A stretch of 64,000 nucleotides of DNA, taken from the NCBI GenBank assembly GCA_946611235.1, contig CAMODE010000028.1, positions 601 through 64,600 of the forward strand, written 5' to 3'. The first letter of the stretch is position 1, and every line of letters starts with the position of its first letter. This stretch comes from an uncultured Bacillales bacterium (GTDB lineage: Bacteria; Bacillota_I; Bacilli_A; RF39; UBA660). The notes below the pieces were generated by a model that was not told the DNA's origin, did not search any database, and saw only the letters and a list, made by a program, of their open reading frames with translations. The position numbers and the translations under genes were made by a program. Positions 39,512 through 61,281 of this stretch are shown one piece after another.

Positions 39512-39538
39512 AAAATGTAGCCATATAGGTTACATTTT
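39512..39538 (-). terminator. rho-independent terminator after the coupling-protein gene
   Basis: AAAATGTAGCC-ATAT-AGGTTACATTTT with a U-run on the minus strand. One mismatch relative to 31147-31173. Confidence 0.6.
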
Positions 39539-41732
39539 AATCATCATCTGCAAAGAAATCATCAAAGAAATCATCATCATCAGTATTATCTTCATAAACA
39601 GTAGTTACTTCTTTTTTATCTTCTGTCTCTACTTTATTATCAGTTACATTATCATCTACTTTAGTATCATTATCACTATTTTTATCTTCAAATGAAGCAT
39701 CAATAGTCTTATTCGGAACTAAATCTTTAACTGACACTTCTTCAGATTCTTTCTTCTCTTTAGCAAGTTCTTCTTCTTTTTCAATTTCCGCTATCTTAGC
39801 ATCTATCTTCTTTACCAAGTCATCAATATTAAAACTATCACTATCATTATTTTTAGAAGGTTCTTTCATAAAACCAGGTAGAGGTCCACCAAATGGATTA
39901 CCACCCATTGGAGCACCGCCAAACGGATTACCTCCCATTGGAGAACCACCAAATGGACTAGTTCCAATAAATGGATTAGCACCACCAAATGGTCCACTAG
40001 GTTGGAAAGATTCCATGCTAGCCATTTTTTCCTGTTTTTTTGCTTTAACATATTCCCTTATATCAAATAATTCAACAGGTTTCTTCTCTCTAGTTGGAGG
40101 CGTAGCTTTCGAATAACTCTTACCCCAGTCAACCTCAAAATCCGTTTGGAATCTTGTTTTATATGGAAATAATCTTCTTCTTAAAACAATAATTTCAAAT
40201 TTATTAAGTCTTTGTAAATCACTAACAGTAACAAGAGGTGTCGATGCTGTCTTATCCTTTTCCTTAGATTTAACTTCACCACACATCTTACTAATCTCTT
40301 CAAGAGCAGCAATTTCACTACTAATCAAATATAATAAATTACAGTTACCACGAATAGTATCACCATTTTCTTTACCATAAACTTGCGTAAGTTGAGCAAA
40401 GTTCTGAATAATAAAGGTAAATCTAATCAATCTACTTCTGGCAGCAGTAACCATTGTTGTAACATCTTTAAGTGGTGGCATATTAGCAAACTCATCCAAT
40501 ATAAAGTTAGTTCTAAATGGAAGTTTACCACCAGATTCTTGAGCAACATCAATAAGTGTTTCATAACATTGTTTAATAAATATCGTAGCAAGAGGATGTA
40601 ATGTCTTCTTTTCATCTTGAACAATTAAAAATACAGCCGTTTTCTTTCTACCAATATCTCTCATATCGAAATCACTATAAGAAAGCATCTCAGATAAATT
40701 TTCTCTAGAAGAAAATAATTTAATCTTCTGCTTAAATGTAGCAATAATACCTTGTTTAGTTTCATCAGCAGTAAATACCGTACCAGAAGCATTAATGTAT
40801 GCAGGTTTAGAAGGATCCTTACCATTAAAATACTCTTTAATATAATTATTATTAGGTCCTCCAAATCTCTCTTCACCTAAACTACACATTAAATTCAAAC
40901 TATTTAAGTTAACCTGCTCTGGAGTAGCATCTTCAAACAAACCTAAAGCAAGACCAGTAAAATAATCCGCTGCTGTCTTCTCCCAGAAAGGATCTCCACT
41001 ACTCTTTTCTTCATACAAGATATTTAAAGCAAGGTCATCCAATAACTCAATAGCCTTATCTGTATTACCTTCTTTATATAATTTATAAGGCAAACTCATC
41101 GGATTCCATGCATTACCATGCTGTGGATCTCTAAAATTTAAAGTAACAATATTATAACCAGCTTCTTTTAATATTTCAGCAGTCTCTTCATATAACTCAC
41201 CCTTAGGGTCAGTTAAAATCATCGATTCATTATGTTTAGCAAGAAGTTTAATCATCGGTTTAGCAACAATAACAGTTTTACCACTACCAGTAGCACCCAT
41301 TACCAAGTAATGATCCTCACCATTATCAACCCACATCTTACCTTTCTTACTATATAAAGCAATACCAGCAGCAGGAATACTCTTATCTTTAATATTAACT
41401 ACTTCTAATCCTTTTTTAAACTCATTATCCGTAGCCCACCTAGAATATCCTTTTTCTTTCTTAGAACCAATACTAATTCCAAATCCACCCTTATCACTAC
41501 TAAAGATATAAGATTTAACAGCTAAGAAAATTCCTATTAAAGATACTAAAAATAATAAAAATGTTGCCCCAATATATCTACTAGTAAAAGCCATAAAAGG
41601 CAAAAAACCATAAAATTTACCATTAGCAAAAATACTAGCTACATTAAGTACTCCTATTGCACATAAATACAATAAAAATACACAAAAGCAAATAAATATT
41701 ATTAAATCTTTCTTTTCTACTTTTATTTTCAT
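39537..41732 (-). CDS. virD4: type IV secretion coupling protein (VirD4/TraG/PcfC family) with low-complexity C-terminal extension
   Basis: Two N-terminal TMs, Walker A GATGSGKT, TDPKGELY, FILDEFANMP (Walker B), IIQNFAQL. C-terminal GGNPFGG repeats and a D/F-rich tail. Confidence 0.9.
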   Translation of the reverse strand: MKIKVEKKDLIIFICFCVFLLYLCAIGVLNVASIFANGKFYGFLPFMAFTSRYIGATFLLFLVSLIGIFLAVKSYIFSSDKGGFGISIGSKKEKGYSRWATDNEFKKGLEVVNIKDKSIPAAGIALYSKKGKMWVDNGEDHYLVMGATGSGKTVIVAKPMIKLLAKHNESMILTDPKGELYEETAEILKEAGYNIVTLNFRDPQHGNAWNPMSLPYKLYKEGNTDKAIELLDDLALNILYEEKSSGDPFWEKTAADYFTGLALGLFEDATPEQVNLNSLNLMCSLGEERFGGPNNNYIKEYFNGKDPSKPAYINASGTVFTADETKQGIIATFKQKIKLFSSRENLSEMLSYSDFDMRDIGRKKTAVFLIVQDEKKTLHPLATIFIKQCYETLIDVAQESGGKLPFRTNFILDEFANMPPLKDVTTMVTAARSRLIRFTFIIQNFAQLTQVYGKENGDTIRGNCNLLYLISSEIAALEEISKMCGEVKSKEKDKTASTPLVTVSDLQRLNKFEIIVLRRRLFPYKTRFQTDFEVDWGKSYSKATPPTREKKPVELFDIREYVKAKKQEKMASMESFQPSGPFGGANPFIGTSPFGGSPMGGNPFGGAPMGGNPFGGPLPGFMKEPSKNNDSDSFNIDDLVKKIDAKIAEIEKEEELAKEKKESEEVSVKDLVPNKTIDASFEDKNSDNDTKVDDNVTDNKVETEDKKEVTTVYEDNTDDDDFFDDFFADDD

Positions 41733-41896
41733 CTAATAACACCTCTCAAACTAACAATATTATAGCATTATAAGTATAAAAAGTAAACAAAAAAATAAAA
41801 AAGAAAAAAGAGCAATTAAGCCCTTTATATATTCAGATACAGTTAGTCTATTTCAACATACCTATCATCATTAATTAATATATTTATTATCAATAA

Positions 41897-42829
41897 TTAA
41901 TTATGTGAATTATTACTTGAAGCATTTTCAGAATTACCTTCCATTTTTCTAACTCTTGCCAATGGTCTATCTACGTCAGTGGTTCCATTTTTATTTAAAG
42001 CACTTAATAACAAAGCCGTTGTAGTATCTTGACCACTGGAAGTACCTAAACTAGCAATAACATTTGCATTAGAGCCAGAAATTAGCACTGTTTTAATAAC
42101 TTCAGAAATTAAATTTTCATCATAACCATTTTCGGCTAACACAGCAATCGTTGCCTTTAAAATAATATTTTGACGATATGCTTCAGCTTCAGCAGAAATC
42201 TTTTGAGCTTCAGCATTAATTACTGCTTGCTCTTTTTTACTTTTTGCTTCAGCAATTGCTCTTTTATTTTCCAATTCTTGGGTTTTAGCTTTTTCGTAGT
42301 CATCTACTAAAGCCTGAGGAAGTTTAATATTTTTGAAAGATAAATGGCTAACATGAAGACCAGTTCTAGCCTCAAATGCATTAAATAAATCACCCGGGTC
42401 TTTTTCATCTATTGAGTAATTTCTTCCAATTAGTTCTTGAGCACTTTTACTCTCCACAAAACTACGGATAACATCCTTTACTAAAATTCCTAATTCTTGA
42501 ATTGGATTAGTATTTTCATATTCAAATTTATATGGATCAGCAATTCTAACTGTTAATGCCGGATCTATTTCAACATAAATACCTTCATTAGTTAAATACT
42601 TCTCTGCAGGATAATCGATCACCGTTTTAGTGACATTAACAAGTTTACTACGATACCATGGTAAAACAAATCTAAATCCACTATTTTTAACAGTTACCTT
42701 TCCAGTCAAAACATTTTGACAAATCAACTTTGCATTTTTCGGTATCATTCTAAATAATTTAACATTATAACTTTTATATAATTCCGAATTAACTTCTGGT
42801 ATAAAAGCATTTTTTTCATTTTGTTCCAT
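41897..42829 (-). CDS. SPFH/band-7 (stomatin/prohibitin-like) domain protein
   Basis: SPFH-like core (...VIDYPAEKYLTNEGIYVEIDPALTVRIADPYKF...) followed by A/E/K coiled coil (ELENKRAIAEAKSKKEQAVINAEAQKISAEAEAYRQN). Start set at the Met after AAGGGGGA. Confidence 0.7.
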   Translation of the reverse strand: MEQNEKNAFIPEVNSELYKSYNVKLFRMIPKNAKLICQNVLTGKVTVKNSGFRFVLPWYRSKLVNVTKTVIDYPAEKYLTNEGIYVEIDPALTVRIADPYKFEYENTNPIQELGILVKDVIRSFVESKSAQELIGRNYSIDEKDPGDLFNAFEARTGLHVSHLSFKNIKLPQALVDDYEKAKTQELENKRAIAEAKSKKEQAVINAEAQKISAEAEAYRQNIILKATIAVLAENGYDENLISEVIKTVLISGSNANVIASLGTSSGQDTTTALLLSALNKNGTTDVDRPLARVRKMEGNSENASSNNSHN

Positions 42830-42967
42830 AATCATTTCCCCCTTAAACTTAAAAGGATTTCCCCTTAAGCAATTAAATTGTATCACAAAAGCGTACATTT
42901 GTCAAATTTGAATAATATTCTACAGCAAAAAAACAAATTTTATTCAAAAAAAGTGTTATAAAAACAC

Positions 42968-43807
42968 TTATTCTTCATTACTTTTAAAATAAAAATTAAC
43001 CTTATAATTCATAACCCCATTCTCACTAAAAGAATAAGAATTATCATTATTATCAATAACAGTATATACTCTATTATCTTTATATTCATCCATATTACAT
43101 AACTTACTAGAAGAAGTAATCTTACTTATATTATCATCAACATATTTATTAAATTCTTCATAAGTATTAAATCTCTTCTTCATACTATCATTAAGCATTT
43201 CATAAGCATCTTTAGTATTATTAAATAATTTACTAACATAATCAGAAAAATATAATTTACATATCTGTACATCAGTAATATTTTCACTTTCAATCATTTT
43301 ATTATTTGGATTACTATCAATATTAATTTTCTTAATACTATTAATAACCTTCTTATAATTATCACTATTTACAGGATATAGAGAATAAGTATTATTAGAA
43401 ACATCATTAAGAACAACTATTTTAAAATTGTCATCAATAATATTAGTACTATCAAAATCATTCTCTATAATTTTACCATTAACTAAATATAAATAATTCT
43501 TACCTATTTTAACATATTCAATATTATTAGTACTAACTTCCGATAATACAGAATAATTTTTACTATCTATAATAGTATTACTATCTAAATATCTATCATC
43601 TAACAAAGACTTAACATTATCATTATTTGTAACCATATAACTAATATAATTATTAACCTCTCTTGTAATAGAAAAGAAAGTACTATAATCATTTACATAT
43701 ACTAACTTATCAGTATTACTTTTTCTACTAGTAAAGAATATAATAAGTCCACATATAATACAAACAACAAGTACGACAATTAAAGTTTTCTTATCATCTT
43801 TTTTCAT
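42968..43807 (-). CDS. membrane-anchored protein at the PrgL/TcpC (VirB8-like) position
   Basis: N-terminal TM plus a ~250-aa ectodomain. Assignment is by synteny only (follows the hydrolase, as prgL follows prgK). Confidence 0.3.
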   Translation of the reverse strand: MKKDDKKTLIVVLVVCIICGLIIFFTSRKSNTDKLVYVNDYSTFFSITREVNNYISYMVTNNDNVKSLLDDRYLDSNTIIDSKNYSVLSEVSTNNIEYVKIGKNYLYLVNGKIIENDFDSTNIIDDNFKIVVLNDVSNNTYSLYPVNSDNYKKVINSIKKINIDSNPNNKMIESENITDVQICKLYFSDYVSKLFNNTKDAYEMLNDSMKKRFNTYEEFNKYVDDNISKITSSSKLCNMDEYKDNRVYTVIDNNDNSYSFSENGVMNYKVNFYFKSNEE

Positions 43808-44547
43808 TGTAATTCCTCCGTTATTAAATTATCTTTCATGTTACTAGGTCTCGGTTTATCAACAGAAACATATTCGAGAGGATCAGATTTATTACCATTT
43901 ATTCTTATTTCAAAATGAAGATGTCCTCCCGTAGAATTACCAGAAGAACCACTTTTAGCAATTACTTGCCCTTGCATAACATAATCCCCTTTTTTTACAG
44001 TAATAGAATCAGCATACAAGTGACCATATAAAGATATAATACCATCACCATGATCAATCATAACATAATTACCATAACTCTTGCAATTAGCTCCGTATGG
44101 AAAATTAGTGCATGTTCCAATACTAACATTATCATTAACATCAGGATATAATACTGTACCACTCTTCGTAGCAATGACATTTTCCTGACCGACAACAGCA
44201 GCAATATCAATTGCTCCATGAGCTCCACTATGAACATCATCATTACCCGCAAACCAAGCCGTTATTGTAGTCGCCGAAGGACTTCCCGTCGCAAACTCTT
44301 TGCCATTAACAGTAGTAATCTCACTACTACCAATAGGCCAATAATATCCCGTATTATCATTAGTAGAACTATATCCTTCATATGCATAACTATTAGAACT
44401 ACTTCCACCATCAAAATCAATTATACCAAGTACTAACCCAACAGGAACAAAAATAATAACAATAAAAAAGATGATGAATATAAAAGGAGAAATAGCACCC
44501 GCAATAACAAGTTTTTTCTTCATATCTCCATTCATAATATTCACCAC
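43804..44547 (-). CDS. membrane-anchored M23 (LytM-type) peptidoglycan hydrolase
   Basis: HGAIDIAA, GNYVMIDHGDGIISLYGHL, GSSGNSTGGHLHFEIR. Confidence 0.88.
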   Translation of the reverse strand: MVNIMNGDMKKKLVIAGAISPFIFIIFFIVIIFVPVGLVLGIIDFDGGSSSNSYAYEGYSSTNDNTGYYWPIGSSEITTVNGKEFATGSPSATTITAWFAGNDDVHSGAHGAIDIAAVVGQENVIATKSGTVLYPDVNDNVSIGTCTNFPYGANCKSYGNYVMIDHGDGIISLYGHLYADSITVKKGDYVMQGQVIAKSGSSGNSTGGHLHFEIRINGNKSDPLEYVSVDKPRPSNMKDNLITEELQ

Positions 44548-44558: not shown

Positions 44559-46343
44559 TTACAATCCACCACCAGAACCAAATGATTCTAATTCATCTTC
44601 TGTAACAATTACATTAATTTGCATTCTTCTATTACCACATACAAATAATGCTTCACCCTGACTAAATCTCTTAATAGCTTCTTTCTCATTATCATTTAAA
44701 TCAATAAGCATTGATAAATCATCAACAGCTTGTTTCTTTAATCCCATTACCAAGTAATAAGAAGAATTATCAAATATAGCTTTACCATGCATTAATATTC
44801 CATCTGCTACAAAATCTGAAGGTTGCTGTGTAATAATAATCGTACCAGTATTATATTTTCTAGCCCTTCTCTGAACCTGGGCAAGAAATTCCGCTCCAAG
44901 TTCATTTTTAGCTCCTAATAATACATGAGCTTCATCAACAGATAAAACAGTATTAACATCAGGATTTAAACAAAGTCCCCAAGCAAACTTAAGAACATTA
45001 AATAAAAGTGCATTTCGAATATTAACATCAGAGTTCATAAGCTCTTTAATATTAAATACAAGAAAATCACTATCCGTATTAATAGATGTCTTACCATTAA
45101 AGAAATACTTAAGTTCTCTTACTAAAGGCCTAAGTTTTAACTCTAACCTTTCCATAACATCTCTTTCATGAGTCTTTTCTGTCATCGAAGTAAGTTTACT
45201 AGTAACAGTAACATAAACATCACTAAATGTTGGATAATCAGCTGATGTAAATTTAGAGAAATCGCTAGTAAAAGTAATACCAAATCTAGCATAAGTATCT
45301 TGTACAATTTCACTAAATAAAGTAAGAACATCATCTTCAATATCAGGAGAATAATACTTCATAAATGCCTTTAAAGATTGAAGAGTCTTATTAAGAACCG
45401 TATATCCAAGACCATTCTTAATCTCTGTTTCATCAGCATCCATAATAACCTCAAGTGGATTAACCATACCATATTCTCCACCTTTACCAAGGTCTACTAC
45501 ATCTCCACCGTACATCCTAGTCATTTCACTAATTTCACCCTCAGGATCTACAGCAACAATCTGATAACCATTTCTAATATGACTTCTAAGAATAAGCTTA
45601 GCCGCAGTACTCTTACCACTACCAGAAGTACCAAGCATAATCATATTAGCATTATTTCTATTACTCTCTTTTCTTAATTGATATAAAAACTGATTAAATA
45701 ACACTACTCCACCAGAAAAATCAACACCAAGTAAGGTAGATAAACCATCATCTTTAATACTATCAAAGATAAAAGGATACATCGCAGCCATTGTAGGAGA
45801 AGGCATAGGCGTACCAATTCTATCCTCAATAACTTGCTTTTCAAATATAGGAAGCATTGACTTAAATACCCTTTCCTGTTCAAATCTTAAAGGAATAGCT
45901 CTAAGCTCCATAGCATCCATATAATTCTTCACATTAACCTTTTTCATTTCAAGTTCTTCTCTAGTATCAGCAGTAATCATAATATGCATTTGAAAATCAA
46001 AAGTTCTAGCTTGCGAAGCAGTAAACTGTTGAATAAAATATTCAAGTGATTCAACATCTTGTCTAATTCTTTCTTGAATAGTTCTATCCTTTTCCTGTTG
46101 ATATCTACTTCTAAGATCAGATATCTCTTTATTAAGCATCTTAGATAAAACACTAAAAGATACCGGAATATGCTTAATAACAAGTTTAACACCAGACATA
46201 TTAGTCAAATTAGATAAATAACCAGGACCAATAAATCTAGGATAAGAAATAACCGTTAAAATAGTAGCATACTTATCACTAATAACAAAATCCGAAGGAT
46301 TAAATTGTAATCCCTTAGGAGCAATCTCACTCTTAAAATTCAT
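44559..46343 (-). CDS. virB4: VirB4/PrgJ-type T4SS ATPase, C-terminal (ATPase) part
   Basis: Walker A GTSGSGKST, AVDPEGE, Walker B SVDEAHVLL, IIITQQPSD. Confidence 0.9.
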   Translation of the reverse strand: MNFKSEIAPKGLQFNPSDFVISDKYATILTVISYPRFIGPGYLSNLTNMSGVKLVIKHIPVSFSVLSKMLNKEISDLRSRYQQEKDRTIQERIRQDVESLEYFIQQFTASQARTFDFQMHIMITADTREELEMKKVNVKNYMDAMELRAIPLRFEQERVFKSMLPIFEKQVIEDRIGTPMPSPTMAAMYPFIFDSIKDDGLSTLLGVDFSGGVVLFNQFLYQLRKESNRNNANMIMLGTSGSGKSTAAKLILRSHIRNGYQIVAVDPEGEISEMTRMYGGDVVDLGKGGEYGMVNPLEVIMDADETEIKNGLGYTVLNKTLQSLKAFMKYYSPDIEDDVLTLFSEIVQDTYARFGITFTSDFSKFTSADYPTFSDVYVTVTSKLTSMTEKTHERDVMERLELKLRPLVRELKYFFNGKTSINTDSDFLVFNIKELMNSDVNIRNALLFNVLKFAWGLCLNPDVNTVLSVDEAHVLLGAKNELGAEFLAQVQRRARKYNTGTIIITQQPSDFVADGILMHGKAIFDNSSYYLVMGLKKQAVDDLSMLIDLNDNEKEAIKRFSQGEALFVCGNRRMQINVIVTEDELESFGSGGGL

Positions 46344-46897
46344 TACGAAGTCACCACCTTAAAATTAGTAGTCATTCCACTATTAAGAAAATTATCAAGT
46401 ATTACTCTTAAGTCATCATTAGAAGTTTGAACAGCCTCTAACCCACTATTAGCGAGTCCAGTAATCAAAGTTCTAAGTCTTTTCTGAATAATATCATCAT
46501 TCTTCTCTTTAAATAAAATATAGTATTCAGTATCAGTAATATTATTATTCATAAAAGTATTAGCCTTATCAATATCCTGATTAATAAGCTTTCTAACTGC
46601 TGGACTAGTACTCTGATTATATAATAATTGCAATCTAGCCAAATAAGCATTCAAGTCAACAGGTCTATCAGCACTAATAAGCCAAAACTCAAAATCAATC
46701 ATATTATAAAAATTTTTTAATGCTACAATAACATTATCTTGAATAGACTGATCAAGAATAAAGATATTTCTTGGCTTAATCTTAACACCAGTAACTTTTT
46801 TCTTATTATCTAAGATAATACAACCATTAGTAATAGAATTAATAGGAACCCAATCCTCAGTAAAGCCACTATTTGTCTTCTTTCCCGAACTTTTCAT
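46343..46897 (-). CDS. VirB4/PrgJ N-terminal domain encoded as a separate ORF
   Basis: MKSSGKKTNSGFTEDWVPINSITNGCIILDNKKKVTGVKIKPRNIFILDQ... resembles the N-terminal region of Gram-positive VirB4 proteins. Its stop overlaps the next ATG (TAATG at 46341-46345). The longer ORF-track N-terminus is an alternate frame of the VirB3-like gene. Confidence 0.6.
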   Translation of the reverse strand: MKSSGKKTNSGFTEDWVPINSITNGCIILDNKKKVTGVKIKPRNIFILDQSIQDNVIVALKNFYNMIDFEFWLISADRPVDLNAYLARLQLLYNQSTSPAVRKLINQDIDKANTFMNNNITDTEYYILFKEKNDDIIQKRLRTLITGLANSGLEAVQTSNDDLRVILDNFLNSGMTTNFKVVTS

Positions 46898-47189
46898 AAA
46901 AACACCAACCTCTCCATTTATAATTTCTTTTTTCAATAAAAAACCTATATATACTCTGTATCGCACAAAGTACATTATGATAATTAGGAATAGGAACCAC
47001 CAAGAGTCCAGTGATAGCAACTGGTAAACAAGATATAAGTACCAGTATACTATCATTAGAATCAACCATAACAAGTAATAATAAAGATACTAAAGCCCCA
47101 GTCCCAAACATAATCAAATCAAAAGGCCTAAAAATATTAAATATAAGTGTACCCTTCTTAGCATTAGCAGGTACTAAATAACCATTCAC
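46869..47189 (-). CDS. PrgI-family (VirB3-like) small membrane protein
   Basis: 106 aa. LIFNIFRPFDLIMFGTGALVSLLLLV plus a second TM. Lies immediately upstream of virB4, as prgI does. Confidence 0.6.
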   Translation of the reverse strand: MNGYLVPANAKKGTLIFNIFRPFDLIMFGTGALVSLLLLVMVDSNDSILVLISCLPVAITGLLVVPIPNYHNVLCAIQSIYRFFIEKRNYKWRGWCFYEKFGKEDK

Positions 47190-51339: not shown

Positions 51340-51423
51340 ATCTATACTCCTCCTCTTCAATATAATTATATATTACACTAAAATAATTAAAATGTCAAAT
51401 ATAGGTTAACAATATTTTACATT

Positions 51424-51846: not shown

Positions 51847-51904
51847 ACAAATCAACTCCTTAAATACATTAATATTTTATCACAAAAATAAATATTTACC
51901 AATA

Positions 51905-54385: not shown

Positions 54386-55278
54386 TATTCAGCACCTACA
54401 TTCTCGTTATAATATTTTTCTCCTGCTAGAAGAAAATAACTATTAATAATAACCACTAAATGAACAAATATCCTAATAATTAAATTATCAACCATATTAA
54501 TATAAGTTTCTTGTCCAATTAATATTTGAATAAGAGCAATCATACCATATAAAGCCACACCAAAAGTAACAAATTGTCTATGAAAATTAGCCCTATCCGT
54601 TCTATCTCTGTATACACCTTCTACTAATACATCAATATCTGTAAGCATATTTTCAAAAGTACCTTGGGTATCCTTGGCCCCCTCTTTAGTAACCTGTAAA
54701 AACAATTGATGCATATTTTTTACCATATAATAAGGATATTTAGTATCCATATACTTAATAGAATCACTAATATCACCTTTTTCATATGATAAAGCAATCA
54801 TCATCTTAACATCACTAAGTAAAGGTTCCTCTAATATACCAGATTCAACTACTCCTTCTAAACTCTTAACAAAAGCTTGTGTCGTATTAAATTCCATAAT
54901 CGTATTAGTACAATAAACCTGTACCTGTTCAAATATATATTCACTATATTGTCTTTTACATCTTAAATAAGTAACATAAGGAATAAAAGAAATAGCAATA
55001 ACAATATATACAACCGAAATAATAATATTATAAAAATATAAATAACTAATACCACCAGCAAGTCCAGCAAAGATAAGTACCTGAAATAAATATTGTCTTG
55101 GACTATATTCAAGTCCTAATTCTTTAACCTTTTCTCTCATCATTTTAAAAGAATAAGGCTCTATTTTCTTATAAGTAGATATAGCCTGCTGCGAAATAAA
55201 CTTATATACAGACTCTCCTCTCTTTGTACGATAAGAAACAATAAATAAAATAATTAAACCTATTAATAAAATTTCCAT
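54385..55278 (-). CDS. tadB: TadB-like platform protein (GspF/T2SSF fold)
   Basis: Same topology as its neighbour. Overlaps it by 1 nt. Confidence 0.6.
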   Translation of the reverse strand: MEILLIGLIILFIVSYRTKRGESVYKFISQQAISTYKKIEPYSFKMMREKVKELGLEYSPRQYLFQVLIFAGLAGGISYLYFYNIIISVVYIVIAISFIPYVTYLRCKRQYSEYIFEQVQVYCTNTIMEFNTTQAFVKSLEGVVESGILEEPLLSDVKMMIALSYEKGDISDSIKYMDTKYPYYMVKNMHQLFLQVTKEGAKDTQGTFENMLTDIDVLVEGVYRDRTDRANFHRQFVTFGVALYGMIALIQILIGQETYINMVDNLIIRIFVHLVVIINSYFLLAGEKYYNENVGAE

Positions 55279-55291: not shown

Positions 55292-56599
55292 TTATCCATT
55301 AATACCAGTAACATTAACCATCTGAGGAGCATTAACATAATTATTAGGTATACTACTATTATTATTAACACCTTGTATAGCATTCTGATTATTATTATCC
55401 ACATTCATTGTTGATAAAGGCTGATTATTATTTGCTATATTAACAGTTCCTGTTGACGTACCATAATTATCTTGCATATAATTACTATTATCAACAACAA
55501 AACTATCGCTCGAAGCATCCCTAAATTCTTCTTTAACAAGAATATCACTAGGAATAATAACACCTTGGGTTTCTAAATAATCAATTAAATGCTTCGAAGG
55601 ATTTAAAATAGTCTCTTTACCATCCGGAGTCTTCTTATATAAAGTTCTCGATTTAGGATTATTATTTTCATCAACATAAAATTCAACAACTTCCGATACC
55701 TCTCTATGAAAAGCATTATACTTAGTACTAAAATAACCCTTAATATGAACACCAATTTGAACATATCTATGAATAGTAGCTAAAAATTGATTAACATCTT
55801 GATTAGTCTCCAATAAACTATACATTCTATTAGGAATAGACTCAGCCTTATCAGCATGAATAGTAGATAAAATATTATGACCAGAAGAAATTGAATTACG
55901 AACAGCCATAACAGCTTCCGCACTTCTAACCTCAGATAAAAGTATCCATCTAGGATTCTGCCTCATACAAGCTACTAATATATCTGAGTATGAAGCAATA
56001 TTATTCGTTTTCATAGCAACAATATCCCTATAAGGAAATATTTTATCCAAATGTAATTCCAAAGTATCTTCAATTGTAATGAGTTTTTCATTATCTTTCG
56101 TATGCGCAGCCAAATACTTAATAAACTCCGTCTTACCAGAACCAGTTTCACCACTAACAATAATATTACAATGACCTTCTACACATTTTAGTAAAAAATC
56201 ATGAATATTAAGTCTAATATAATCTTCTTTTATTATCTTTTCTTTCTCTAGTCTAATCTTAGCAGGAGTCTTTCTAATTAATACAGCTATACCATTCTTA
56301 GCAATCGAATCATGTAAAAAATTCATTCTTAATTCAGTAGACTCAGCATCCAACATCGGATTAGCCATATTAAAAGATTTACCCATTGAATTAGCACACT
56401 GAAAAGCAATCTTTTCCATTAGAGCATTATCAATACCAGTATTTTCTACTCTAAAAACACCTTTAGATAAAGTTTTAAGCCATACTTGTCCACCATTATC
56501 ATAAGATATATCCGTAATATCATCATTATCTAAAAACTGTTTTAAAGGGCCAAAATCAATTTGACTAAATTGTTCATCCACTATATACCCTCCCTTCAA
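55292..56599 (-). CDS. cpaF: CpaF/TadA-type secretion ATPase (VirB11 superfamily)
   Basis: Walker A GETGSGKT, ITIEDTLEL, RQNPRWILLSEVRSAEA, STIHADKAES. Asn-rich C-terminal tail. Confidence 0.85.
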   Translation of the reverse strand: MKGGYIVDEQFSQIDFGPLKQFLDNDDITDISYDNGGQVWLKTLSKGVFRVENTGIDNALMEKIAFQCANSMGKSFNMANPMLDAESTELRMNFLHDSIAKNGIAVLIRKTPAKIRLEKEKIIKEDYIRLNIHDFLLKCVEGHCNIIVSGETGSGKTEFIKYLAAHTKDNEKLITIEDTLELHLDKIFPYRDIVAMKTNNIASYSDILVACMRQNPRWILLSEVRSAEAVMAVRNSISSGHNILSTIHADKAESIPNRMYSLLETNQDVNQFLATIHRYVQIGVHIKGYFSTKYNAFHREVSEVVEFYVDENNNPKSRTLYKKTPDGKETILNPSKHLIDYLETQGVIIPSDILVKEEFRDASSDSFVVDNSNYMQDNYGTSTGTVNIANNNQPLSTMNVDNNNQNAIQGVNNNSSIPNNYVNAPQMVNVTGING

Positions 56600-57446: not shown

Positions 57447-57472
57447 TTTATTCCTCCTTCGCTTCTCTTATT

Positions 57473-58411
57473 TTATACAAATATATCATAATTCCATCTA
57501 ATTTTATACTTAACAAAAAGTATTTTATTATCACTATTATTAATAGTACCTCTCCACTTAAATATAAAAGTATTAACACCATTACATCTAGAATCAACAT
57601 TACTATTACATAAATAAATATCATCAATTTTAGATATATTTAAATTACCAGTATAATACCTATCAATATCATAATAACTCATATCAAAATATGAAGATTT
57701 ACCAGTTACCCAATCAACTTCTCTCTTTAGAAAAGCCATGGAAACATTCTCAAACAAATTATCATCAATAACATTAGGTCCATCAATAATTTCTACACTA
57801 TTAACTTTAATAAGTCCACCCCGAACATCCAAAATATCAGGAATCTTTAGAACTTGATTAAAATCAACGTTATTAGATTTAACACCAATAAAGGAATAAT
57901 AATCACCTTCATAACTCTTGCTAATATAACCATTATTTATTCCAGAAAAATAATTACTACTTTCATCATAAAAGATAGAATCTTCACCAATATTATAAAA
58001 ATCAAAATTATTATATTCTAATATTGCGCTAAGAGAATTAACAACATTATAATCCGAAGTATCTTTATAAATAGTATAGGATCCTATTCCAGTATCAATC
58101 ATAATAGTAACCTTAGGAGGACTTTCCATAATATCAAACATTTTAATCGTATAAGAACTTCCCATAAAAAGAGTAGATTCAGCAAATCTTCTAGTAAAAC
58201 TTTCAACAAAAACCTTTTCTCTAATTCTAAGTTCACCAGTTTCTCTATAAGTCTTATAATCAATAGCATCAAACATAGAAGCCTCTGTTACTTCTTTCAA
58301 TAAATAGTAATCATTCTCATTATTAGTAGTAAGACTTTGAAATAATAAAATAATAGCAATTCCTATTAATCCTAAAATAGTAACACCAATAGTAGCAAAA
58401 GACCATTTCAC
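57473..58411 (-). CDS. membrane-anchored hypothetical protein
   Basis: N-terminal TM (ATIGVTILGLIGIAIILLF). 4-nt overlap with the upstream gene. Confidence 0.55.
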   Translation of the reverse strand: MKWSFATIGVTILGLIGIAIILLFQSLTTNNENDYYLLKEVTEASMFDAIDYKTYRETGELRIREKVFVESFTRRFAESTLFMGSSYTIKMFDIMESPPKVTIMIDTGIGSYTIYKDTSDYNVVNSLSAILEYNNFDFYNIGEDSIFYDESSNYFSGINNGYISKSYEGDYYSFIGVKSNNVDFNQVLKIPDILDVRGGLIKVNSVEIIDGPNVIDDNLFENVSMAFLKREVDWVTGKSSYFDMSYYDIDRYYTGNLNISKIDDIYLCNSNVDSRCNGVNTFIFKWRGTINNSDNKILFVKYKIRWNYDIFV

Positions 58412-60462
58412 TCATTACCACCTACTTTTAATCCCGTTTCATTAATAAAACTATCAAAATCAAAGTTAAAGTAATTATTTGAACTATTATATTTCTTAAT
58501 ATTATAAATACTATTACTATTAAGTTCAATACTATAATCTAAATGATCATATGCTTCTTTTAATCTATCTCTATTATTATTATACCACAAATACCAATTT
58601 AAGCCAACTGCTCTATTAGGACCGGGAAAAGGATTATCCAAATCAATAGGCCTATATATATATTTATAAATAACCTTAGATTTAGTATTATCTCCATCAT
58701 TATTAAAATCAGAGTTACTATAAGAACCAGGTCCTAATTTGTAAACATTAATATCACAGCTACCATCTGAAGATAAAACTATTTCGTCCCATTTACTACC
58801 ATACCACACTTTATTACCTTCTCCATCACTCTTAGCATAATCCCTATTTAACAAACTAGCATTCAATATACTAGCAGAAACCCTATAAACAGGAACATAT
58901 TCTAAAGGTAAATAATACTTGTTATTAATACCATAATCAAACATAGCATCAATATCATCTTTTTTAATAGAGCCATCTTCGTTAACAACTTGAGGATTAA
59001 AATAGAATAAGCAAATAGTTTCAACAGAATTATTATTTTTTGTTTGAGAACACTGCTTATTTAAAAAAGAACTATCTACTAAAATATTACCTATTTTAAA
59101 ATTTTCAAGTGCAATATTATCATAACTAATTACTCTATCATTCATAACATTAGTAATATTAACATCTTTCGATCCACTTACATAATCAAAATCAATTTTA
59201 TTATAATATATAATACCAAACTTAATACCTCCCCCATTATATATCTCTTTAGGAGTAAGTATATTAGAAATAACCCCTGTCTGCTTAATACTAACAACAG
59301 CAGTTTCATTTCCATCATGAACCGTCAATTCCTCACATTCACTTAACAATCTCTCTGAATTATTACATGATAAAGGGCCATTATTAGATTTATCAATAGA
59401 GCACTTTTTATCATCTATAAAATCAACAGTTAATGTTGTTTGTCCAGCCGGCAAAGCCCAACTTCTATATATTTTAGCTGTAGTAACATTACCAGGAAAT
59501 AAACCTGTATTATCCGTATTAATAATATAATCACCAGGCCCACATTTATATACAATATTACAATCAGTATCCTTAATCTTTTTAGTATATTCATAATAAT
59601 CATTATTAATATATATACGATCATTAACCCCAATAACATTTCCTGTATAATAAGAATTATTTCTAAAAACTCTAGGGATTCCATGGTGAACAGTAACATA
59701 AAGTTCATTTTTAGAAATAGAACTATTATGTATTTTAACTTTACTAGAAGATCCACTTTTAACATTGTCTGCAATATATATTTCACTACCAGCCCATAAC
59801 CTATTATCATAACTAATAGCACTAATCTTTCCTTTTAAACCCCTAGTACCATAACAAATACCATTATTATATTTACTATTAAAATCATTATTAGTAGCAT
59901 AAATATAGAATTTATAAGTTACATTATCAGATAAATTCAACGAAGAAAGATTCAATTCAATATGAAACCCTATATCTTCATATAAGCACTGATAGCACTC
60001 ACCTGCACCACAACTTTTATCACTAATATTACATGAATTTGCATCATATTTACCAGTTAAATGATTTTTATTATTATAATATTCATCTGCTACATTAGCA
60101 TTCAATTTATCGTAAAATTGCATATAATAAAAGTTATATTTCTTTAATTCACTAGAATTAGTTCCTCTATAGCCACTATATAAAGAATTATTTAAATATT
60201 TCTTTTCTCCAGTTAAAGTATTTTCAGCAACAATTATAATATCCTGCCCACCACCATAGCTAGCAGAACCATAAACCTTTTTATTTCTCGAATTGTTTGT
60301 AAAATGAATAAAAGCCCAACCATCAAAAACAATTTTCTCATCACTAACATTTAATTTGGTAATTTCATATATAAGATCTCCACAATTAGCCTTAGAGACA
60401 GGTAACCCAATAAAAAATAATGTAATAATATATATAAGTATAAAATATTTTGATCTTTTCAT
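58408..60462 (-). CDS. large secreted Asn/Tyr/Cys-rich protein (candidate adhesin)
   Basis: Signal peptide. 684 aa. No recognisable catalytic motif. Confidence 0.55.
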   Translation of the reverse strand: MKRSKYFILIYIITLFFIGLPVSKANCGDLIYEITKLNVSDEKIVFDGWAFIHFTNNSRNKKVYGSASYGGGQDIIIVAENTLTGEKKYLNNSLYSGYRGTNSSELKKYNFYYMQFYDKLNANVADEYYNNKNHLTGKYDANSCNISDKSCGAGECYQCLYEDIGFHIELNLSSLNLSDNVTYKFYIYATNNDFNSKYNNGICYGTRGLKGKISAISYDNRLWAGSEIYIADNVKSGSSSKVKIHNSSISKNELYVTVHHGIPRVFRNNSYYTGNVIGVNDRIYINNDYYEYTKKIKDTDCNIVYKCGPGDYIINTDNTGLFPGNVTTAKIYRSWALPAGQTTLTVDFIDDKKCSIDKSNNGPLSCNNSERLLSECEELTVHDGNETAVVSIKQTGVISNILTPKEIYNGGGIKFGIIYYNKIDFDYVSGSKDVNITNVMNDRVISYDNIALENFKIGNILVDSSFLNKQCSQTKNNNSVETICLFYFNPQVVNEDGSIKKDDIDAMFDYGINNKYYLPLEYVPVYRVSASILNASLLNRDYAKSDGEGNKVWYGSKWDEIVLSSDGSCDINVYKLGPGSYSNSDFNNDGDNTKSKVIYKYIYRPIDLDNPFPGPNRAVGLNWYLWYNNNRDRLKEAYDHLDYSIELNSNSIYNIKKYNSSNNYFNFDFDSFINETGLKVGGNE

Positions 60463-61145
60463 TTCAAAACACCCCTATTCTTTTTTCTTCTTATAAAAAT
60501 AATAAAAGCAAAAAAAATCAAAATAAATGCAAAAGTAAAAATAAAATAAACATATTTTTCTTTAATATAACTATACAAATAGTTAAGATAATATGATATA
60601 TTTATGTTTTCAGCAGTCTTTTCATCACTCTTGTTATTATCAGTATTTCTTTTATAATCATTGATTTTTTTTTCAAAATATTCATAAGACACTTCATGTT
60701 CAAAATATTTTCCACACAAAGCAAAATCATTTCCACTTATGCCTTCACACAAAGGATCCAAAGAATAAATATTAAATCTGGGTAAAGTAACATTAATAGT
60801 AGACAAGATGATATCACATTTTTTTGAAATAATATAATATTTGTATGTTCCAGTATCACTTTCAAAAGTAATATAATTAGAATTAAAATCTCTATCTAAT
60901 AAATTCCCAAAATCATCTTTTATATTAAAATCAGTAGTTAATTTGTTGAAAGTTAAAGTAAAATGATTATATTCTAATAATCCACCTTCCACTTCAACAG
61001 CCCCCAAATGTTTATAAGTTACTTTAATTTTATCAGCCTCTTTTTTTAATAAACTAATTTCGTCATTAGTGCATTGAGCATTAACACAGTTAATAAGTAA
61101 ACAAGAAAATAATATAGTAAAAACAAAATAACATATTTTTTTCAT
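60459..61145 (-). CDS. secreted protein with C-terminal TM anchor
   Basis: Signal peptide (KKICYFVFTILFSCLLINCVNA). C-terminal TM followed by RRKKNRG and no LPXTG. First gene of the block. Confidence 0.55.
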   Translation of the reverse strand: MKKICYFVFTILFSCLLINCVNAQCTNDEISLLKKEADKIKVTYKHLGAVEVEGGLLEYNHFTLTFNKLTTDFNIKDDFGNLLDRDFNSNYITFESDTGTYKYYIISKKCDIILSTINVTLPRFNIYSLDPLCEGISGNDFALCGKYFEHEVSYEYFEKKINDYKRNTDNNKSDEKTAENINISYYLNYLYSYIKEKYVYFIFTFAFILIFFAFIIFIRRKKNRGVLK

Positions 61146-61281
61146 ACATACCTCCACTAGTTTACTCTATATAAATATAACATTTTTTTTCAAAAAAAGA
61201 AAGACATTTTCTATATTTTATAATACAAATAATATTAAAAGAAAAAGGCAATAATAAAAGAAAAAAGAATAGTATTTAAAA

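What the first reader, a model, noticed from the sequence alone, without database searches (positions are those of the whole stretch)
39537..61157. Chimeric Tad/Flp-pilus plus Gram-positive conjugative-type T4SS block with no relaxase or integrase, embedded between housekeeping genes
Seen in sequence:
- 21 tightly packed minus-strand genes, many translationally coupled. Overlaps occur at 60459-60462, 58408-58411, 54385, 46343 and 43804-43807.
- The 5' half encodes a Tad-type pilus set: CpaB-like SAF protein; CpaF/TadA ATPase (GETGSGKT, ITIEDTLEL); two GspF-fold TadB/TadC proteins; a 58-aa Flp-like pilin; a TadE-like pseudopilin; a TadZ-like protein.
- The 3' half encodes T4SS parts in the order known from pCF10 prgH-prgI-prgJ-prgK-prgL...pcfC: VirB6-like, VirB3-like, VirB4, cell-wall hydrolase, membrane-anchored VirB8-position protein, VirD4 coupling protein.
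- Not present anywhere in the block or its flanks: relaxase/MOB, integrase or recombinase, replication or partition genes, a prepilin peptidase, obvious flanking direct repeats.
- The flanks are rhodanese-yunB-sufB on one side and trmL-queH on the other, in the same orientation.

Established knowledge: monoderm conjugative T4SSs (MPF-FA/FATA) normally use surface adhesins rather than pili. Tad pili are separate type IVc pilus machines. T4SSs without a relaxase have been co-opted for DNA uptake (ComB) or effector delivery.

Inference: this may be one domesticated machine in which a Tad pilus replaces the adhesin module of a T4SS. Possible roles are pilus-assisted mating, DNA uptake or release, or contact-dependent protein delivery. 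I am not aware of a characterised system with this architecture.
Basis: partly seen in the sequence, partly recalled or inferred. Interest (0 to 1): 0.86.

Follow-up and report, generated by a model that had tools for sequence, protein, structure and literature searches.

The report
Chromosomally fixed relaxase-less Gram-positive conjugation-type machine
A 21-gene pilus-plus-secretion machine of the kind carried by Gram-positive conjugative plasmids sits, without any DNA-processing or integration genes nearby, at the same chromosomal spot in hundreds of species of small-genome uncultured gut bacteria, so it looks like a domesticated cell-contact apparatus rather than a mobile element.

Summary
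Window 39537-61157 carries 21 co-oriented, tightly packed genes: a Tad-like filament module upstream and a monoderm (MPF-FATA) T4SS downstream. The 64-kb window holds no relaxase, integrase, prepilin peptidase, tRNA or flanking repeats.

The claim of an unprecedented chimera does not hold. The same combination occurs in known Firmicutes conjugative plasmids: pLS20 family, pAW63-like pBMB67 and pHTbeta. There the ATPase has been called "VirB11". Profile comparisons link six window proteins to these plasmids. They also show that the two membrane proteins after the ATPase are T2SSF (TadB/TadC)-like.

What is unusual is the setting. The block lies between trmL and rhodanese-yunB-sufB in many species of uncultured, low-GC gut Bacilli with contigs of 1.1-1.3 Mb. 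At least 475 matches were found in species-representative genomes. The motor proteins are more conserved than the flanking housekeeping genes, while the surface proteins diverge fast. One subclade keeps only the Tad-like half at this locus.

Best reading: a vertically inherited, domesticated conjugation-type contact machine, analogous to the relaxase-less T4SS of Patescibacteria. Substrate and direction of transport are unknown. A relaxase elsewhere in the genome is not excluded. I rate it a new variant of a known kind.

The parts
60459..61157 (-). g01, 232 aa: signal peptide plus C-terminal TM anchor; fast-evolving surface protein of unknown function
   Evidence: Sequence. No significant family hit. 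Only 31-43% identical in relatives where TadB-like is 82-88%.
58408..60462 (-). g02, 684 aa: secreted, Cys-rich protein of unknown function; candidate adhesin or tip protein
   Evidence: No family hit. 23-35% identity in the relatives. 4-nt overlaps with both neighbours.
57473..58411 (-). g03, 312 aa: N-terminal TM plus DUF5411 domain
   Evidence: PF17424 4.3e-46. DUF5411 is reported next to CpaF and GspF in Clostridia (PMC9523054). Weak hhalign matches to the small proteins preceding the SAF protein or ATPase in pBMB67 (40%) and a pLS20-family plasmid (32%).
56610..57446 (-). g04, 278 aa: CpaB/RcpC-like SAF-domain protein with an N-terminal TM
   Evidence: hhalign Prob 100, E 3e-45 to a relative that carries a Pfam RcpC hit. 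Prob 99.8, E 1e-28 to the annotated SAF-domain protein of pBMB67.
55292..56599 (-). g05, 435 aa: T2SSE-superfamily secretion ATPase (CpaF/TadA-VirB11 group)
   Evidence: PF00437 4.5e-26. VirB11 1.4e-33, TadA family 3e-27, all below cut-offs. Closest plasmid homologues are the 'CpaF/VirB11 family' ATPases of pLS20-like, pXO1/pXO2-like, Listeria and pHTbeta plasmids.
54385..55278 (-). g06, 297 aa: TadB-like polytopic platform protein (T2SSF-like)
   Evidence: No Pfam hit. AF2 pLDDT 82.5, all-helical. No Foldseek PDB match. hhalign against 8-9 bona fide TadB/TadC: Prob 84.5-95.1, E down to 3e-8; controls below 1%. Homologous to pHTbeta 271-aa (91.8%) and pLS20-family p38-like (95.3%).
53600..54385 (-). 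g07, 261 aa: TadC-like paralogue of g06
   Evidence: hhalign g07 vs g06 Prob 93.7. Vs pBMB67 244-aa Prob 95.5. Vs T2SSF reference 62%, E 7.5e-5, same domain region.
53366..53542 (-). g08, 58 aa: pilin-like small protein
   Evidence: Family-wide conserved N-terminus MKEA[TAS]GE..T followed by a hydrophobic helix and a variable, often Cys-rich C-terminus; 1-3 copies per genome. Lacks the Flp G/XXXXEY motif.
52918..53355 (-). g09, 145 aa: pseudopilin-like protein
   Evidence: Conserved N-terminus M[RK][ED]A.G[GS] plus a hydrophobic helix. No profile match to TadE references.
51905..52915 (-). g10, 336 aa: TadZ-like two-domain protein (alpha/beta N-domain plus MinD/ParA-class NTPase fold with a degenerate P-loop)
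   Evidence: AF2 pLDDT 78.7, two alpha/beta domains. Foldseek PDB hits are HypB, SRP54/FtsY, MinD, ParA, FlhG and BcsQ, E 5e-6 to 1e-3. No sequence-profile match to TadZ/CpaE. The P-loop reads GIKNITDNAGATT.
51424..51855 (-). g11, about 140 aa: VirB2-like T4SS pilin, paralogue of g12
   Evidence: 209-nt repeat 81% identical to g12. 17 of 48 family members hit PF18895 T4SS_pilin, best E 9e-6.
50935..51360 (-). g12, 141 aa: VirB2-like T4SS pilin
   Evidence: Same evidence as g11.
49138..50844 (-). g13, 568 aa: secreted N-terminal domain fused to a C-terminal VirB2-like pilin domain
   Evidence: PF18895 at residues 487-549, E 2e-4, below cut-off. Family scan.
47210..49120 (-). g14, 636 aa: VirB6-like channel protein
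   Evidence: PF19597 TrbL_4 27.3 bits (cut-off 27). Mbov_0396 ICE TM protein 2e-11.
46869..47189 (-). g15, 106 aa: VirB3/PrgI-position two-TM protein
   Evidence: No direct family hit. hhalign 88% to the 138-aa protein upstream of VirB4 in the Mycoplasmatota plasmid; 35% to pBMB67 PrgI.
46343..46897 (-). g16: TrsD-like protein, i.e. the VirB4 N-terminal domain as a separate ORF (the ORF is open to 47074; the likely start gives about 184 aa)
   Evidence: VirB4_plasma model positions 34-277, 3.8e-14. Relatives aa with PF26593 TraC-like. hhalign 98.2% to the pBMB67 227-aa protein.
44559..46343 (-). g17, 594 aa: VirB4 ATPase (C-terminal two thirds)
   Evidence: VirB4_plasma 1.7e-104, CD1110 family 1.7e-51. 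84-94% identical in relatives where trmL is 66-79%.
43804..44547 (-). g18, 247 aa: membrane-anchored M23 peptidoglycan endopeptidase (VirB1 role)
   Evidence: PF01551 1.6e-25.
42968..43807 (-). g19, 279 aa: N-terminally anchored protein in the VirB8 position; identity not tested; not conserved in more distant relatives
   Evidence: No family hit. Replaced by 170-aa and 159-aa proteins in L098/L099.
41897..42898 (-). g20: SPFH/Band-7 protein, an accessory gene specific to this species group
   Evidence: PF01145 3.5e-15. Absent from L098/L099. Promoter-like site at 42905-42877 and terminator-like hairpin at 41826-41807.
39537..41732 (-). g21, 731 aa: VirD4-type coupling protein with a Gly/Pro-repeat and acidic C-terminal tail
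   Evidence: conju_CD1115 1.3e-86, above cut-off. T4SS-DNA_transf, TrwB_AAD_bind and TraG-D_C. 75-99% identical across the 120 listed homologues, out of 7,988 clusters found.

Best explanation
What it is. The block is one vertically inherited, chromosomally fixed copy of the mating-pair-formation apparatus used by a class of Firmicutes conjugative plasmids (pLS20, pAW63/pXO2-like, pHTbeta). It has lost, or never had at this locus, the DNA-processing, integration and maintenance genes. In those plasmids a Tad-like type IV filament module lies in or next to the conjugation region.

Inferred mechanism.
1. The g05 ATPase, working on the g06/g07 T2SSF-like platform and positioned by the TadZ-like g10, assembles a short filament from the g08 pilin-like and g09 pseudopilin-like subunits.
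2. The filament passes through the wall with help from the CpaB-like g04 and DUF5411 g03. The fast-evolving secreted proteins g01/g02 are the likely contact or specificity determinants.
3. The M23 hydrolase opens the peptidoglycan.
4. VirB6, VirB3, TrsD and VirB4, together with three VirB2-like pilins, form the translocon.
5. VirD4 feeds a cytoplasmic substrate (DNA or protein) into it, or receives one from it.

My commitment on function. In these small-genome gut Bacilli the machine has been domesticated for contact-dependent macromolecule exchange with other cells, not for self-transfer of a mobile element. This parallels the relaxase-less T4SS of Patescibacteria.

Shown versus inferred. Shown: gene identities, homology to the plasmid systems, conserved position, selection pattern, and absence of relaxase or integrase in the window. 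Inferred: filament assembly, cooperation between the two halves, substrate and direction of transport.
For: - Component identities.
- Same architecture in plasmids: pHTbeta, pLS20 family, pBMB67, Mycoplasmatota plasmid.
- Homology of window proteins to those plasmids: g04, g05, g06, g07, g16, g17 and g21.
- Fixed chromosomal locus with both flanks conserved across species: queH-PedC-trmL on one side, rhodanese-yunB-sufB-amidase-SSB on the other.
- Spread: at least 475 matches in species-representative genomes; about 8000 protein clusters each for TadB-like and VirD4.
- Selection pattern in the nearest relatives: VirB4 91-94% and TadB-like 82-88% identical, against trmL 75-79% and queH 71-78%. 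Surface proteins are only 28-64%. Divergence of the block tracks divergence of the housekeeping genes.
- No relaxase or integrase in the window.
- No homologue of the MobP3 or MobQ relaxases of the closest plasmids in 1.68 Mb of window plus 91 chromosomal loci.
- No tRNA or att repeats.
- GC content and skew show no obvious step at the block's edges; GC is a few points higher (0.30-0.32) over about 44-49 kb.
- Precedent for a lineage-wide relaxase-less MPF-FATA T4SS with TrsD and VirB2 arrays: PMC12102498.
Against: - No expression or functional data exist.
- Only about 10 kb on either side was inspected in relatives, and 64 kb here. A relaxase and oriT elsewhere in these roughly 1.1-1.3 Mb genomes is not excluded.
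- VirD4 is of a family typical of DNA-transferring systems and is strongly conserved, which fits ordinary conjugation equally well.
- The two halves can be separated. A CAG:914-like subclade has only the Tad-like half at this locus, and L075 lacks VirB2-VirB4. Obligatory cooperation is therefore not demonstrated.
- The Flp and TadE identities, a VirB8-like protein and a prepilin peptidase were not confirmed.
- A terminator-like hairpin and promoter-like sites hint at more than one transcript, though such sites are no more frequent than chance.
Confidence: 0.6

Rival explanations
1. It is a still-functional conjugation apparatus. A relaxase and oriT encoded elsewhere in the genome, or on co-resident mobilisable elements, use this T4SS in trans to move chromosomal or element DNA between cells of the lineage.
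For: The closest relatives of every recognisable part are conjugative-plasmid proteins. VirD4 passes the CD1115 conjugal-transfer cut-off and carries DNA-binding and TraM-recognition domains. It is as conserved as VirB4.
Against: No relaxase lies in 64 kb here, and no MobP3 or MobQ homologue in 1.68 Mb of related loci. In most conjugative systems of this type the relaxase is close to VirD4, as in pBMB67. Fixation at one locus in hundreds of species is not typical of conjugative elements.
Confidence: 0.2
2. These are two functionally independent systems that merely sit side by side: a Tad-like adhesion pilus and a separate T4SS.
For: The Tad-like half occurs at this locus without the T4SS half in a coherent subclade (L012, L013, L016-L018, L021-L023, L026, L030) and is followed there by rlmH and leuS. 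L075 lacks the VirB2-VirB4 core. DUF5411-CpaF-GspF operons without a T4SS are reported in Clostridia.
Against: The two modules lie together, or within a few kb, on four unrelated plasmid backbones. They are collinear in 46 of the 84 related loci, spanning TadB-like identities of 57-88%. Intergenic gaps between the halves are only 49-90 nt.
Confidence: 0.13
3. It is the decaying remnant of an ancient integrative conjugative element.
For: The mobility genes are missing. Some parts are variable or lost in some genomes.
Against: All 21 ORFs are intact. The VirB4 split is conserved in relatives and in pBMB67, so it is not a frameshift. The motors are more conserved than the housekeeping neighbours.
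Confidence: 0.03

Closest known systems
Conjugation (mating-pair-formation) operons of Firmicutes plasmids pLS20 (B. subtilis), pAW63/pXO2-like pBMB67 (B. thuringiensis) and pHTbeta (E. faecium)
   Same: The parts list is shared: (DUF5411-like small TM protein), SAF/CpaB-like, T2SSE ATPase (called VirB11 in the literature), two roughly 245-305-aa membrane proteins, small TM proteins, (VirB2-like) VirD4 of the CD1115 family, VirB6-like, PrgI/VirB3-like, TrsD-like ORF, VirB4 and a wall hydrolase. The local order is largely the same. Profile-level homology was shown for g04, g06, g07 and g16, and BLAST-level homology for g05, g17 and g21.
   Different: Those systems are on plasmids and have a relaxase (MobP3, MobQ, MOBP), replication, partition and regulatory genes, and in pLS20 and pHTbeta an adhesin. 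The window's copy is chromosomal, has none of these in 64 kb, and is fixed at one locus across species. Sequence identity is low (21-33%). The hydrolase here is M23 rather than SLT/C40. VirD4 lies at the end of the block instead of upstream of VirB6.
Relaxase-less chromosomal T4SS of Patescibacteria/CPR (PMC12102498; essential for epibiotic growth in Saccharimonadia according to that paper)
   Same: MPF-FATA-type VirB4 with a separate TrsD-like ORF, PrgI-like VirB3, VirB6 and tandem divergent VirB2-like (PF18895) pilins. No relaxase nearby, a chromosomal location, lineage-wide conservation and small genomes.
   Different: The phylum is different (Bacillota here). Whether this VirB4 falls in or near the Patescibacteria clade was not tested. 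Here VirD4 is adjacent and a Tad-like module is contiguous. In CPR the T4CP is usually distant and the type IV pilus is a separate system.
Tad/Flp (type IVc) pili, including monoderm versions (for example the Clostridium botulinum plasmid and Streptomyces loci used as references)
   Same: The gene set and order are SAF/CpaB, (TadZ), ATPase, TadB, TadC, small pilin, pseudopilins. g06 matches TadB/TadC profiles. g10 has the MinD/ParA-class fold.
   Different: There is no Flp G/XXXXEY motif, no TadE/TadF profile match, no TadV/CpaA peptidase in the window, no direct Pfam T2SSF hit, and the ATPase is no closer to CpaF than to VirB11.
Mycoplasma ICE T4SS (Mbov_0396 / Mbov_0397 families)
   Same: The best NCBIfam models for VirB4 (350 bits) and VirB6-like are the mycoplasma ICE families. 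The best plasmid tblastn hit for VirB4 is a Mycoplasmatota plasmid that also carries SAF-AAA-CpaF-T2SSF.
   Different: Scores are below the family cut-offs. There is no DDE transposase or other ICE-specific gene, and VirB4 is split here.

Membership tests
Tad/Flp type IVc pilus system | TadA/CpaF-type secretion ATPase | tested here: inconclusive
   Membership of the T2SSE superfamily is clear. The subfamily is ambiguous: VirB11 116 bits, TadA family 96, TrbB 95, FlaI 91, all far below cut-offs. The protein is equidistant from plasmid CpaF and VirB11.
Tad/Flp type IVc pilus system | Two paralogous T2SSF-domain platform proteins (TadB, TadC) | tested here: met
   g06 against nine bona fide TadB/TadC: Prob 95.1, E 3e-8 over the T2SSF domain. 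g07: 62%, E 7.5e-5 over the same region. g06 vs g07: 93.7%. Four control families score below 1%. Caveat: no direct Pfam hit and no Foldseek PDB hit.
Tad/Flp type IVc pilus system | Flp pilin with a G/XXXXEY processing motif and a dedicated A24 (TadV/CpaA) prepilin peptidase | tested here: not met
   g08 has a different conserved N-terminus, MKEA[TAS]GE..T. No A24 peptidase was found in the window. The rest of the genome was not searched.
Tad/Flp type IVc pilus system | CpaB/RcpC SAF-domain protein | tested here: met
   Prob 100 to a relative with a Pfam RcpC hit. Prob 99.8 to the annotated SAF protein of pBMB67.
Tad/Flp type IVc pilus system | TadZ/CpaE: receiver-like N-domain plus atypical MinD/ParA ATPase domain | tested here: inconclusive
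   The fold and two-domain layout agree. No sequence-profile match was found. The solved TadZ structure (which I recall as entry 3FKQ) was not among the 50 Foldseek matches listed.
Tad/Flp type IVc pilus system | TadE/TadF pseudopilins | tested here: not met
   hhalign Prob 0.4% against eight TadE/TadG references. Only a pilin-like N-terminal motif supports the call.
Monoderm MPF-FATA type IV secretion system | VirB4 ATPase | tested here: met
   VirB4_plasma 1.7e-104, CD1110 family 1.7e-51. Split into TrsD-like plus C-terminal part, as in pBMB67.
Monoderm MPF-FATA type IV secretion system | VirD4-type coupling protein | tested here: met
   conju_CD1115 291 bits against a cut-off of 250. Three Pfam T4CP domains.
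Monoderm MPF-FATA type IV secretion system | VirB6-like, VirB3/PrgI-like and VirB8-like membrane parts, plus a wall hydrolase | tested here: inconclusive
   VirB6-like just reaches the Pfam cut-off. The hydrolase is clear (M23). VirB3-like rests on position and topology, with 88% and 35% hhalign matches. VirB8-like (g19) was not tested and is not conserved.
Integrative conjugative element or conjugative plasmid (self-transmissible element) | Relaxase (MOB) and oriT | tested here: not met
   No relaxase family among the window ORFs scanned, which included every ORF long enough to be a relaxase. No MobP3 or MobQ homologue in the window plus 91 loci. oriT cannot be tested here, and the rest of the genome was not seen.
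Integrative conjugative element or conjugative plasmid (self-transmissible element) | Integrase or recombinase, att repeats, insertion at a tRNA or other hotspot, patchy distribution among relatives | tested here: not met
   None found. The same insertion context recurs in many species.
Patescibacteria-type domesticated T4SS | VirB4 belonging to the Patescibacteria clade of the VirB4 tree | not tested
   No phylogeny was possible with these tools. Only the shared architecture was established: TrsD, VirB2 arrays, no relaxase, chromosomal.

The most novel reading that the evidence does not exclude
The machine is an indispensable cell-interaction organelle of a whole lineage of small-genome, uncultured gut Bacilli. 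On this reading these bacteria live attached to other cells and use a Tad-like filament plus a relaxase-less T4SS to take DNA, nucleotides or proteins from them, or to inject these into them. That would be a second, independent case of the Patescibacteria-type epibiotic T4SS, this time inside Bacillota and derived from a pLS20/pAW63-type plasmid apparatus.
Probability: 0.2. Interest if true: 0.85.

Novelty: new variant of a known kind. Interest (0 to 1): 0.62.

Why it matters
First, a very abundant but uncultured group of gut bacteria keeps a conjugation-type machine under stronger constraint than its neighbouring housekeeping genes. The group yields thousands of protein clusters in public metagenomes. 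This makes the machine a prime candidate for what these organisms depend on. It also offers a handle for enrichment, imaging or co-culture, because the fast-evolving surface proteins g01, g02 and the pilins should define partner specificity.

Second, the comparison bears on the plasmid field. The so-called VirB11 of pLS20-, pAW63- and pHTbeta-type plasmids is followed by TadB/TadC-like platform proteins. It is accompanied by small TM, pilin-like proteins in all three, by a CpaB-like SAF protein in pBMB67, and by an annotated VirB2-family pilin in pHTbeta. A recent review states that Gram-positive T4SSs universally lack VirB11, and other papers that they lack pilins. If these modules build filaments, part of Gram-positive conjugation is pilus-assisted, and that can be tested directly in the genetically tractable pLS20.

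Tried and rejected
- Direct Pfam and NCBIfam scans of the Tad-like membrane and pilin proteins, and of 20 distant TadB-like homologues, gave no T2SSF, TadE, Flp or RcpC hit.
- Profile searches against PDB sequences gave nothing for the TadB-like, TadZ-like and CpaB-like families.
- Foldseek of the confident TadB-like model against PDB gave no match. I suspect, from memory, that few full-length platform-protein structures are solved. I therefore built reference Tad alignments from annotated plasmid loci instead.
- hhalign gave no significant match in these comparisons: g09 vs TadE, g10 vs TadZ/CpaE, g11 vs pHTbeta VirB2, g13 vs the pHTbeta 608-aa protein, and g07 vs the second pHTbeta membrane protein.
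- The exact VirD4 protein is not on record in the contig index.
- Promoter-like sites are no more frequent than in shuffled sequence, so operon structure could not be settled.
- There are no Rfam families, hence no recognisable riboswitch upstream.
- Literature searches for a prior description in these Bacilli (terms RFN20, CAG-302, DUF5411, TadA+TadB+VirB4) found none.
- I considered and rejected a frameshifted VirB4 pseudogene, because the split is conserved. I also rejected a recent ICE insertion, because the flanks are conserved and no composition step is visible at the edges.

Full report
**Observation.** The window is low-GC (about 22-32%) with strong negative GC skew throughout, and no step in either marks the edges of the block, though GC is a few points higher over about 44-49 kb. 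One search lists 21 minus-strand ORFs between 61157 and 39537.

Direct profile searches identify the following:
- a VirD4 coupling protein (conju_CD1115 above its curated cut-off, plus three Pfam T4CP domains);
- VirB4, closest to the mycoplasma-ICE model and split into a TrsD-like N-terminal ORF and a 594-aa ATPase;
- a VirB6-like protein;
- an M23 hydrolase;
- an SPFH protein;
- a T2SSE-superfamily ATPase;
- a DUF5411 protein.

Three proteins are VirB2-like: the tandem paralogues g11 and g12, and the C-terminus of the 568-aa g13. Of 48 family members, 17 hit PF18895.

Pfam scans of the ORFs I selected across the window, which left out only a few under about 140 aa, show housekeeping and sporulation genes plus one IS200/IS605 tnpA-tnpB pair at 33163-34681. 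They show no relaxase, integrase, replication or partition gene, or A24 peptidase. There is no tRNA, no Rfam family and no att-like direct repeat at the edges.

**Are the Tad-like calls right?** None of them has a direct Pfam or NCBIfam hit, even among homologues only 17-31% identical. I therefore tested them indirectly.
- **g04 (CpaB-like).** It is homologous (hhalign Prob 100) to a relative's protein that carries a Pfam RcpC hit. It also matches the annotated SAF-domain protein of plasmid pBMB67 (Prob 99.8).
- **g06 and g07 (TadB/TadC-like).** They are paralogues of each other (93.7%). I built a reference set of eight, later nine, bona fide TadB/TadC proteins from annotated Tad loci of Azospirillum, Salipiger, Streptomyces, C. 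botulinum and a Mycoplasmatota plasmid. Against it, the g06 family scores Prob 84.5-95.1 (E down to 3e-8) over the T2SSF domain. g07 scores 62% over the same region. Four unrelated families from the locus score below 1%. The AF2 model of g06 is confident and all-helical but has no PDB match.
- **g10 (TadZ-like).** It folds (pLDDT 78.7) into an alpha/beta N-domain plus a MinD/ParA/HypB-class NTPase domain with a degenerate P-loop. That is the TadZ layout, but there is no sequence-level match.
- **g08 and g09 (pilin-like).** Family-wide, they share a short conserved N-terminus (MKEA.GE / MR[ED]A.GG) followed by a hydrophobic helix and a variable C-terminus. This is pilin-like, but it is not the Flp or TadE signature.
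- **g05 (ATPase).** It cannot be assigned to TadA rather than VirB11.

Conclusion: this is a Tad-like type IV filament module, not a canonical Tad system.

**Is the architecture new?** No. The nearest annotated relatives of the ATPase are the "CpaF/VirB11 family" ATPases of Firmicutes conjugative plasmids.
- **pHTbeta.** The gene order is adhesin ... ATPase, 271 aa, 265 aa, three small proteins, TrbC/VirB2, 608 aa, 238 aa, VirD4 (CD1115 family), VirB6-like, DUF5592... VirB4, hydrolase.
- **pLS20 family.** It has the same core: gene 37 "putative VirB11", genes 38 and 39 as two membrane proteins, small TM proteins, then 48 VirD4, 49 VirB6, 52 VirB4, 53 VirB8 and 54 VirB1.
- **pBMB67 (pAW63-like).** It carries relaxase, VirD4, TrbL, PrgI, 227 aa and VirB4. 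A few kb away it has 134 aa, SAF, AAA ATPase, ATPase, 305 aa, 244 aa and small proteins.
- **A Mycoplasmatota plasmid.** It has VirB4 next to SAF, AAA, CpaF and T2SSF.

Profile comparisons tie the window's proteins to these plasmids:

| Window protein | Plasmid counterpart | hhalign Prob |
|---|---|---|
| g06 | pHTbeta 271 aa | 91.8% |
| g06 | pLS20-type p38 | 95.3% |
| g06 | Mycoplasmatota 295 aa | 86.5% |
| g07 | pBMB67 244 aa | 95.5% |
| g16 | pBMB67 227 aa | 98.2% |
| g04 | pBMB67 SAF protein | 99.8% |

The "chimera" is therefore a recurrent layout of one class of Gram-positive conjugation systems. The literature calls the ATPase VirB11 and leaves its neighbours as unknowns. [quoted passage not shown]

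**What is unusual is the genomic setting.**
- **Abundance.** The TadB-like protein has about 8000 close clusters in public data. It gave at least 475 confirmed matches in one-genome-per-species collections. These are MAGs labelled Bacilli bacterium, Tenericutes, Clostridium sp. CAG:302 or CAG:914, and Ca. Fimihabitans. They include contigs of 1.1-1.3 Mb, one a circular chromosome.
- **Gene order in relatives.** In 84 related loci the order g03-g10, pilins, VirB6, VirB3, TrsD, VirB4 is kept. VirB4 or TrsD is visible in 40 loci, and VirB6 or VirB3 in 6 more before the fetched DNA ends.
- **Flanks.** Both are conserved across species: queH-PedC-trmL upstream and rhodanese-yunB-sufB-amidase-SSB downstream.
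- **Selection.** In the nearest relatives VirB4 is 91-94% and TadB-like 82-88% identical, while trmL is 75-79% and queH 71-78%. The secreted or surface proteins (g01, g02, g03, g09, pilins, VirB6) are only 28-64%. Across more distant genomes, block and housekeeping divergence move together.
- **VirB4 split.** It is conserved in relatives and in pBMB67, so it is not a pseudogene.
- **Relaxase.** No homologue of the MobP3 or MobQ relaxases of the closest plasmids occurs in 1.68 Mb of window plus 91 chromosomal loci.

This is the signature of vertical inheritance under purifying selection on the motors and rapid change at the cell surface. It is not the signature of a resident ICE.

**Limits and variants.**
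- A coherent subclade has the Tad-like half followed directly by a membrane protein, rlmH and leuS. It includes Clostridium sp. CAG:914, with TadB-like 68-72% identical to the window.
- One genome goes from TadZ-like straight to hydrolase, lipoprotein and VirD4, without VirB2-VirB4.
- g19 and the SPFH gene are replaced in more distant relatives.
- The stretch between TadZ-like and VirB6 is a variable cassette that can hold CHAP or C39/C70 peptidase genes.

The halves can therefore be uncoupled in evolution, and their cooperation is an inference from recurrent linkage. Promoter and terminator scans are uninformative, apart from a hairpin between the SPFH gene and virD4. I could not search whole genomes, so a distant relaxase or prepilin peptidase remains possible.

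**Interpretation.** The best-supported reading is a domesticated, chromosomally fixed mating-pair-formation machine of the pLS20/pAW63/pHTbeta type. Its filament module and VirB2-like pilins make contact across the wall. Its VirB4/VirD4-powered translocon moves a macromolecule. The closest conceptual parallel is the relaxase-less, TrsD- and VirB2-array-containing T4SS conserved across Patescibacteria. The main rival is ordinary conjugation with a relaxase encoded elsewhere. I found no paper describing this system in these Bacilli.

**Verdict.** The finding is a new variant of a known kind, with moderately high interest. That interest comes from the lineage-wide fixation and from what the comparison implies about "VirB11" modules in Gram-positive conjugation.

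Noticed in passing
L089:11474-14518, L090:14821-17562, L096:26272-31662: In the conjugative plasmids pHTbeta, a pLS20-family plasmid and pBMB67, the ATPase known as 'VirB11' is followed by two membrane proteins. These are homologous to the window's T2SSF-like g06/g07. In pBMB67 the ATPase is preceded by SAF and AAA-ATPase genes. This looks like an unrecognised Tad-like module in Gram-positive conjugation. A 2025 review says such systems universally lack VirB11.
   Followed up: partly
window 33163-34681: An IS200/IS605 element (Y1 transposase TnpA plus TnpB/Cas12f-like OrfB) lies between the tRNA-less housekeeping genes and ssb. It is absent from the same position in relatives L098 and L099.
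   Followed up: partly
window 11114-13000: Two tandem 311-aa paralogues with ORF6N (KilA-N/anti-repressor-like) domains sit in an otherwise housekeeping stretch.
   Followed up: no
L001-L004 about 13500-16100; L098 and L099 1-1700: The segment between the TadZ-like gene and VirB6 is a variable cassette in relatives. It holds CHAP-domain or Peptidase_C39_2/C70 proteins plus a protein of about 215 aa, and differing numbers of VirB2-like genes. The window has only two pilins and the 568-aa fusion.
   Followed up: partly
L075:8300-14400: One related genome goes from the TadZ-like gene to a 722-aa lysozyme-like/M23 hydrolase, a lipoprotein and VirD4. It has no VirB2, VirB6, VirB3 or VirB4 genes in between. 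This is either a natural deletion variant or an assembly artefact.
   Followed up: partly
L022:20208-20735: Clostridium sp. CAG:914 encodes a classical type IVa/ComGC-like prepilin (MNNRGFTLVELL...) about 7 kb from the Tad-like module. These genomes therefore probably also have a PilD/ComC-type peptidase and a second filament system.
   Followed up: no
window 39537-39980: VirD4 ends in a repeated Gly/Pro-rich motif (GGNPFGG, seen as 20-nt direct repeats spaced 30 nt apart), followed by a long acidic, low-complexity tail ending FFDDFFADDD. A similar tail occurs in the L075 homologue.
   Followed up: no
window 1756-2790, 17818-18507, 30101-31155, 38419-39153: The window carries sporulation and germination genes (gpr, a SpoVID-N/LysM protein, cotJB plus a Mn-catalase cotJC-like gene, yunB). 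Related genomes assemble into contigs of only about 1.1-1.3 Mb, so this lineage may be a small-genome spore-former.
   Followed up: no
window 41759-42905: The SPFH/Band-7 gene (g20) has its own strong promoter-like site (TTGACA-17-TACAAT with TG) and is followed by a terminator-like hairpin at 41826-41807. It is missing from more distant relatives, which suggests a recent accessory insertion inside the block.
   Followed up: partly
L013, L015, L017, L021 at about 2000-2300: In the subclade lacking the adjacent T4SS half, a YunB-like gene (26-36% identical) lies about 4 kb upstream of the Tad-like module. This hints at a rearrangement or deletion that joined the two former flanks.
   Followed up: no
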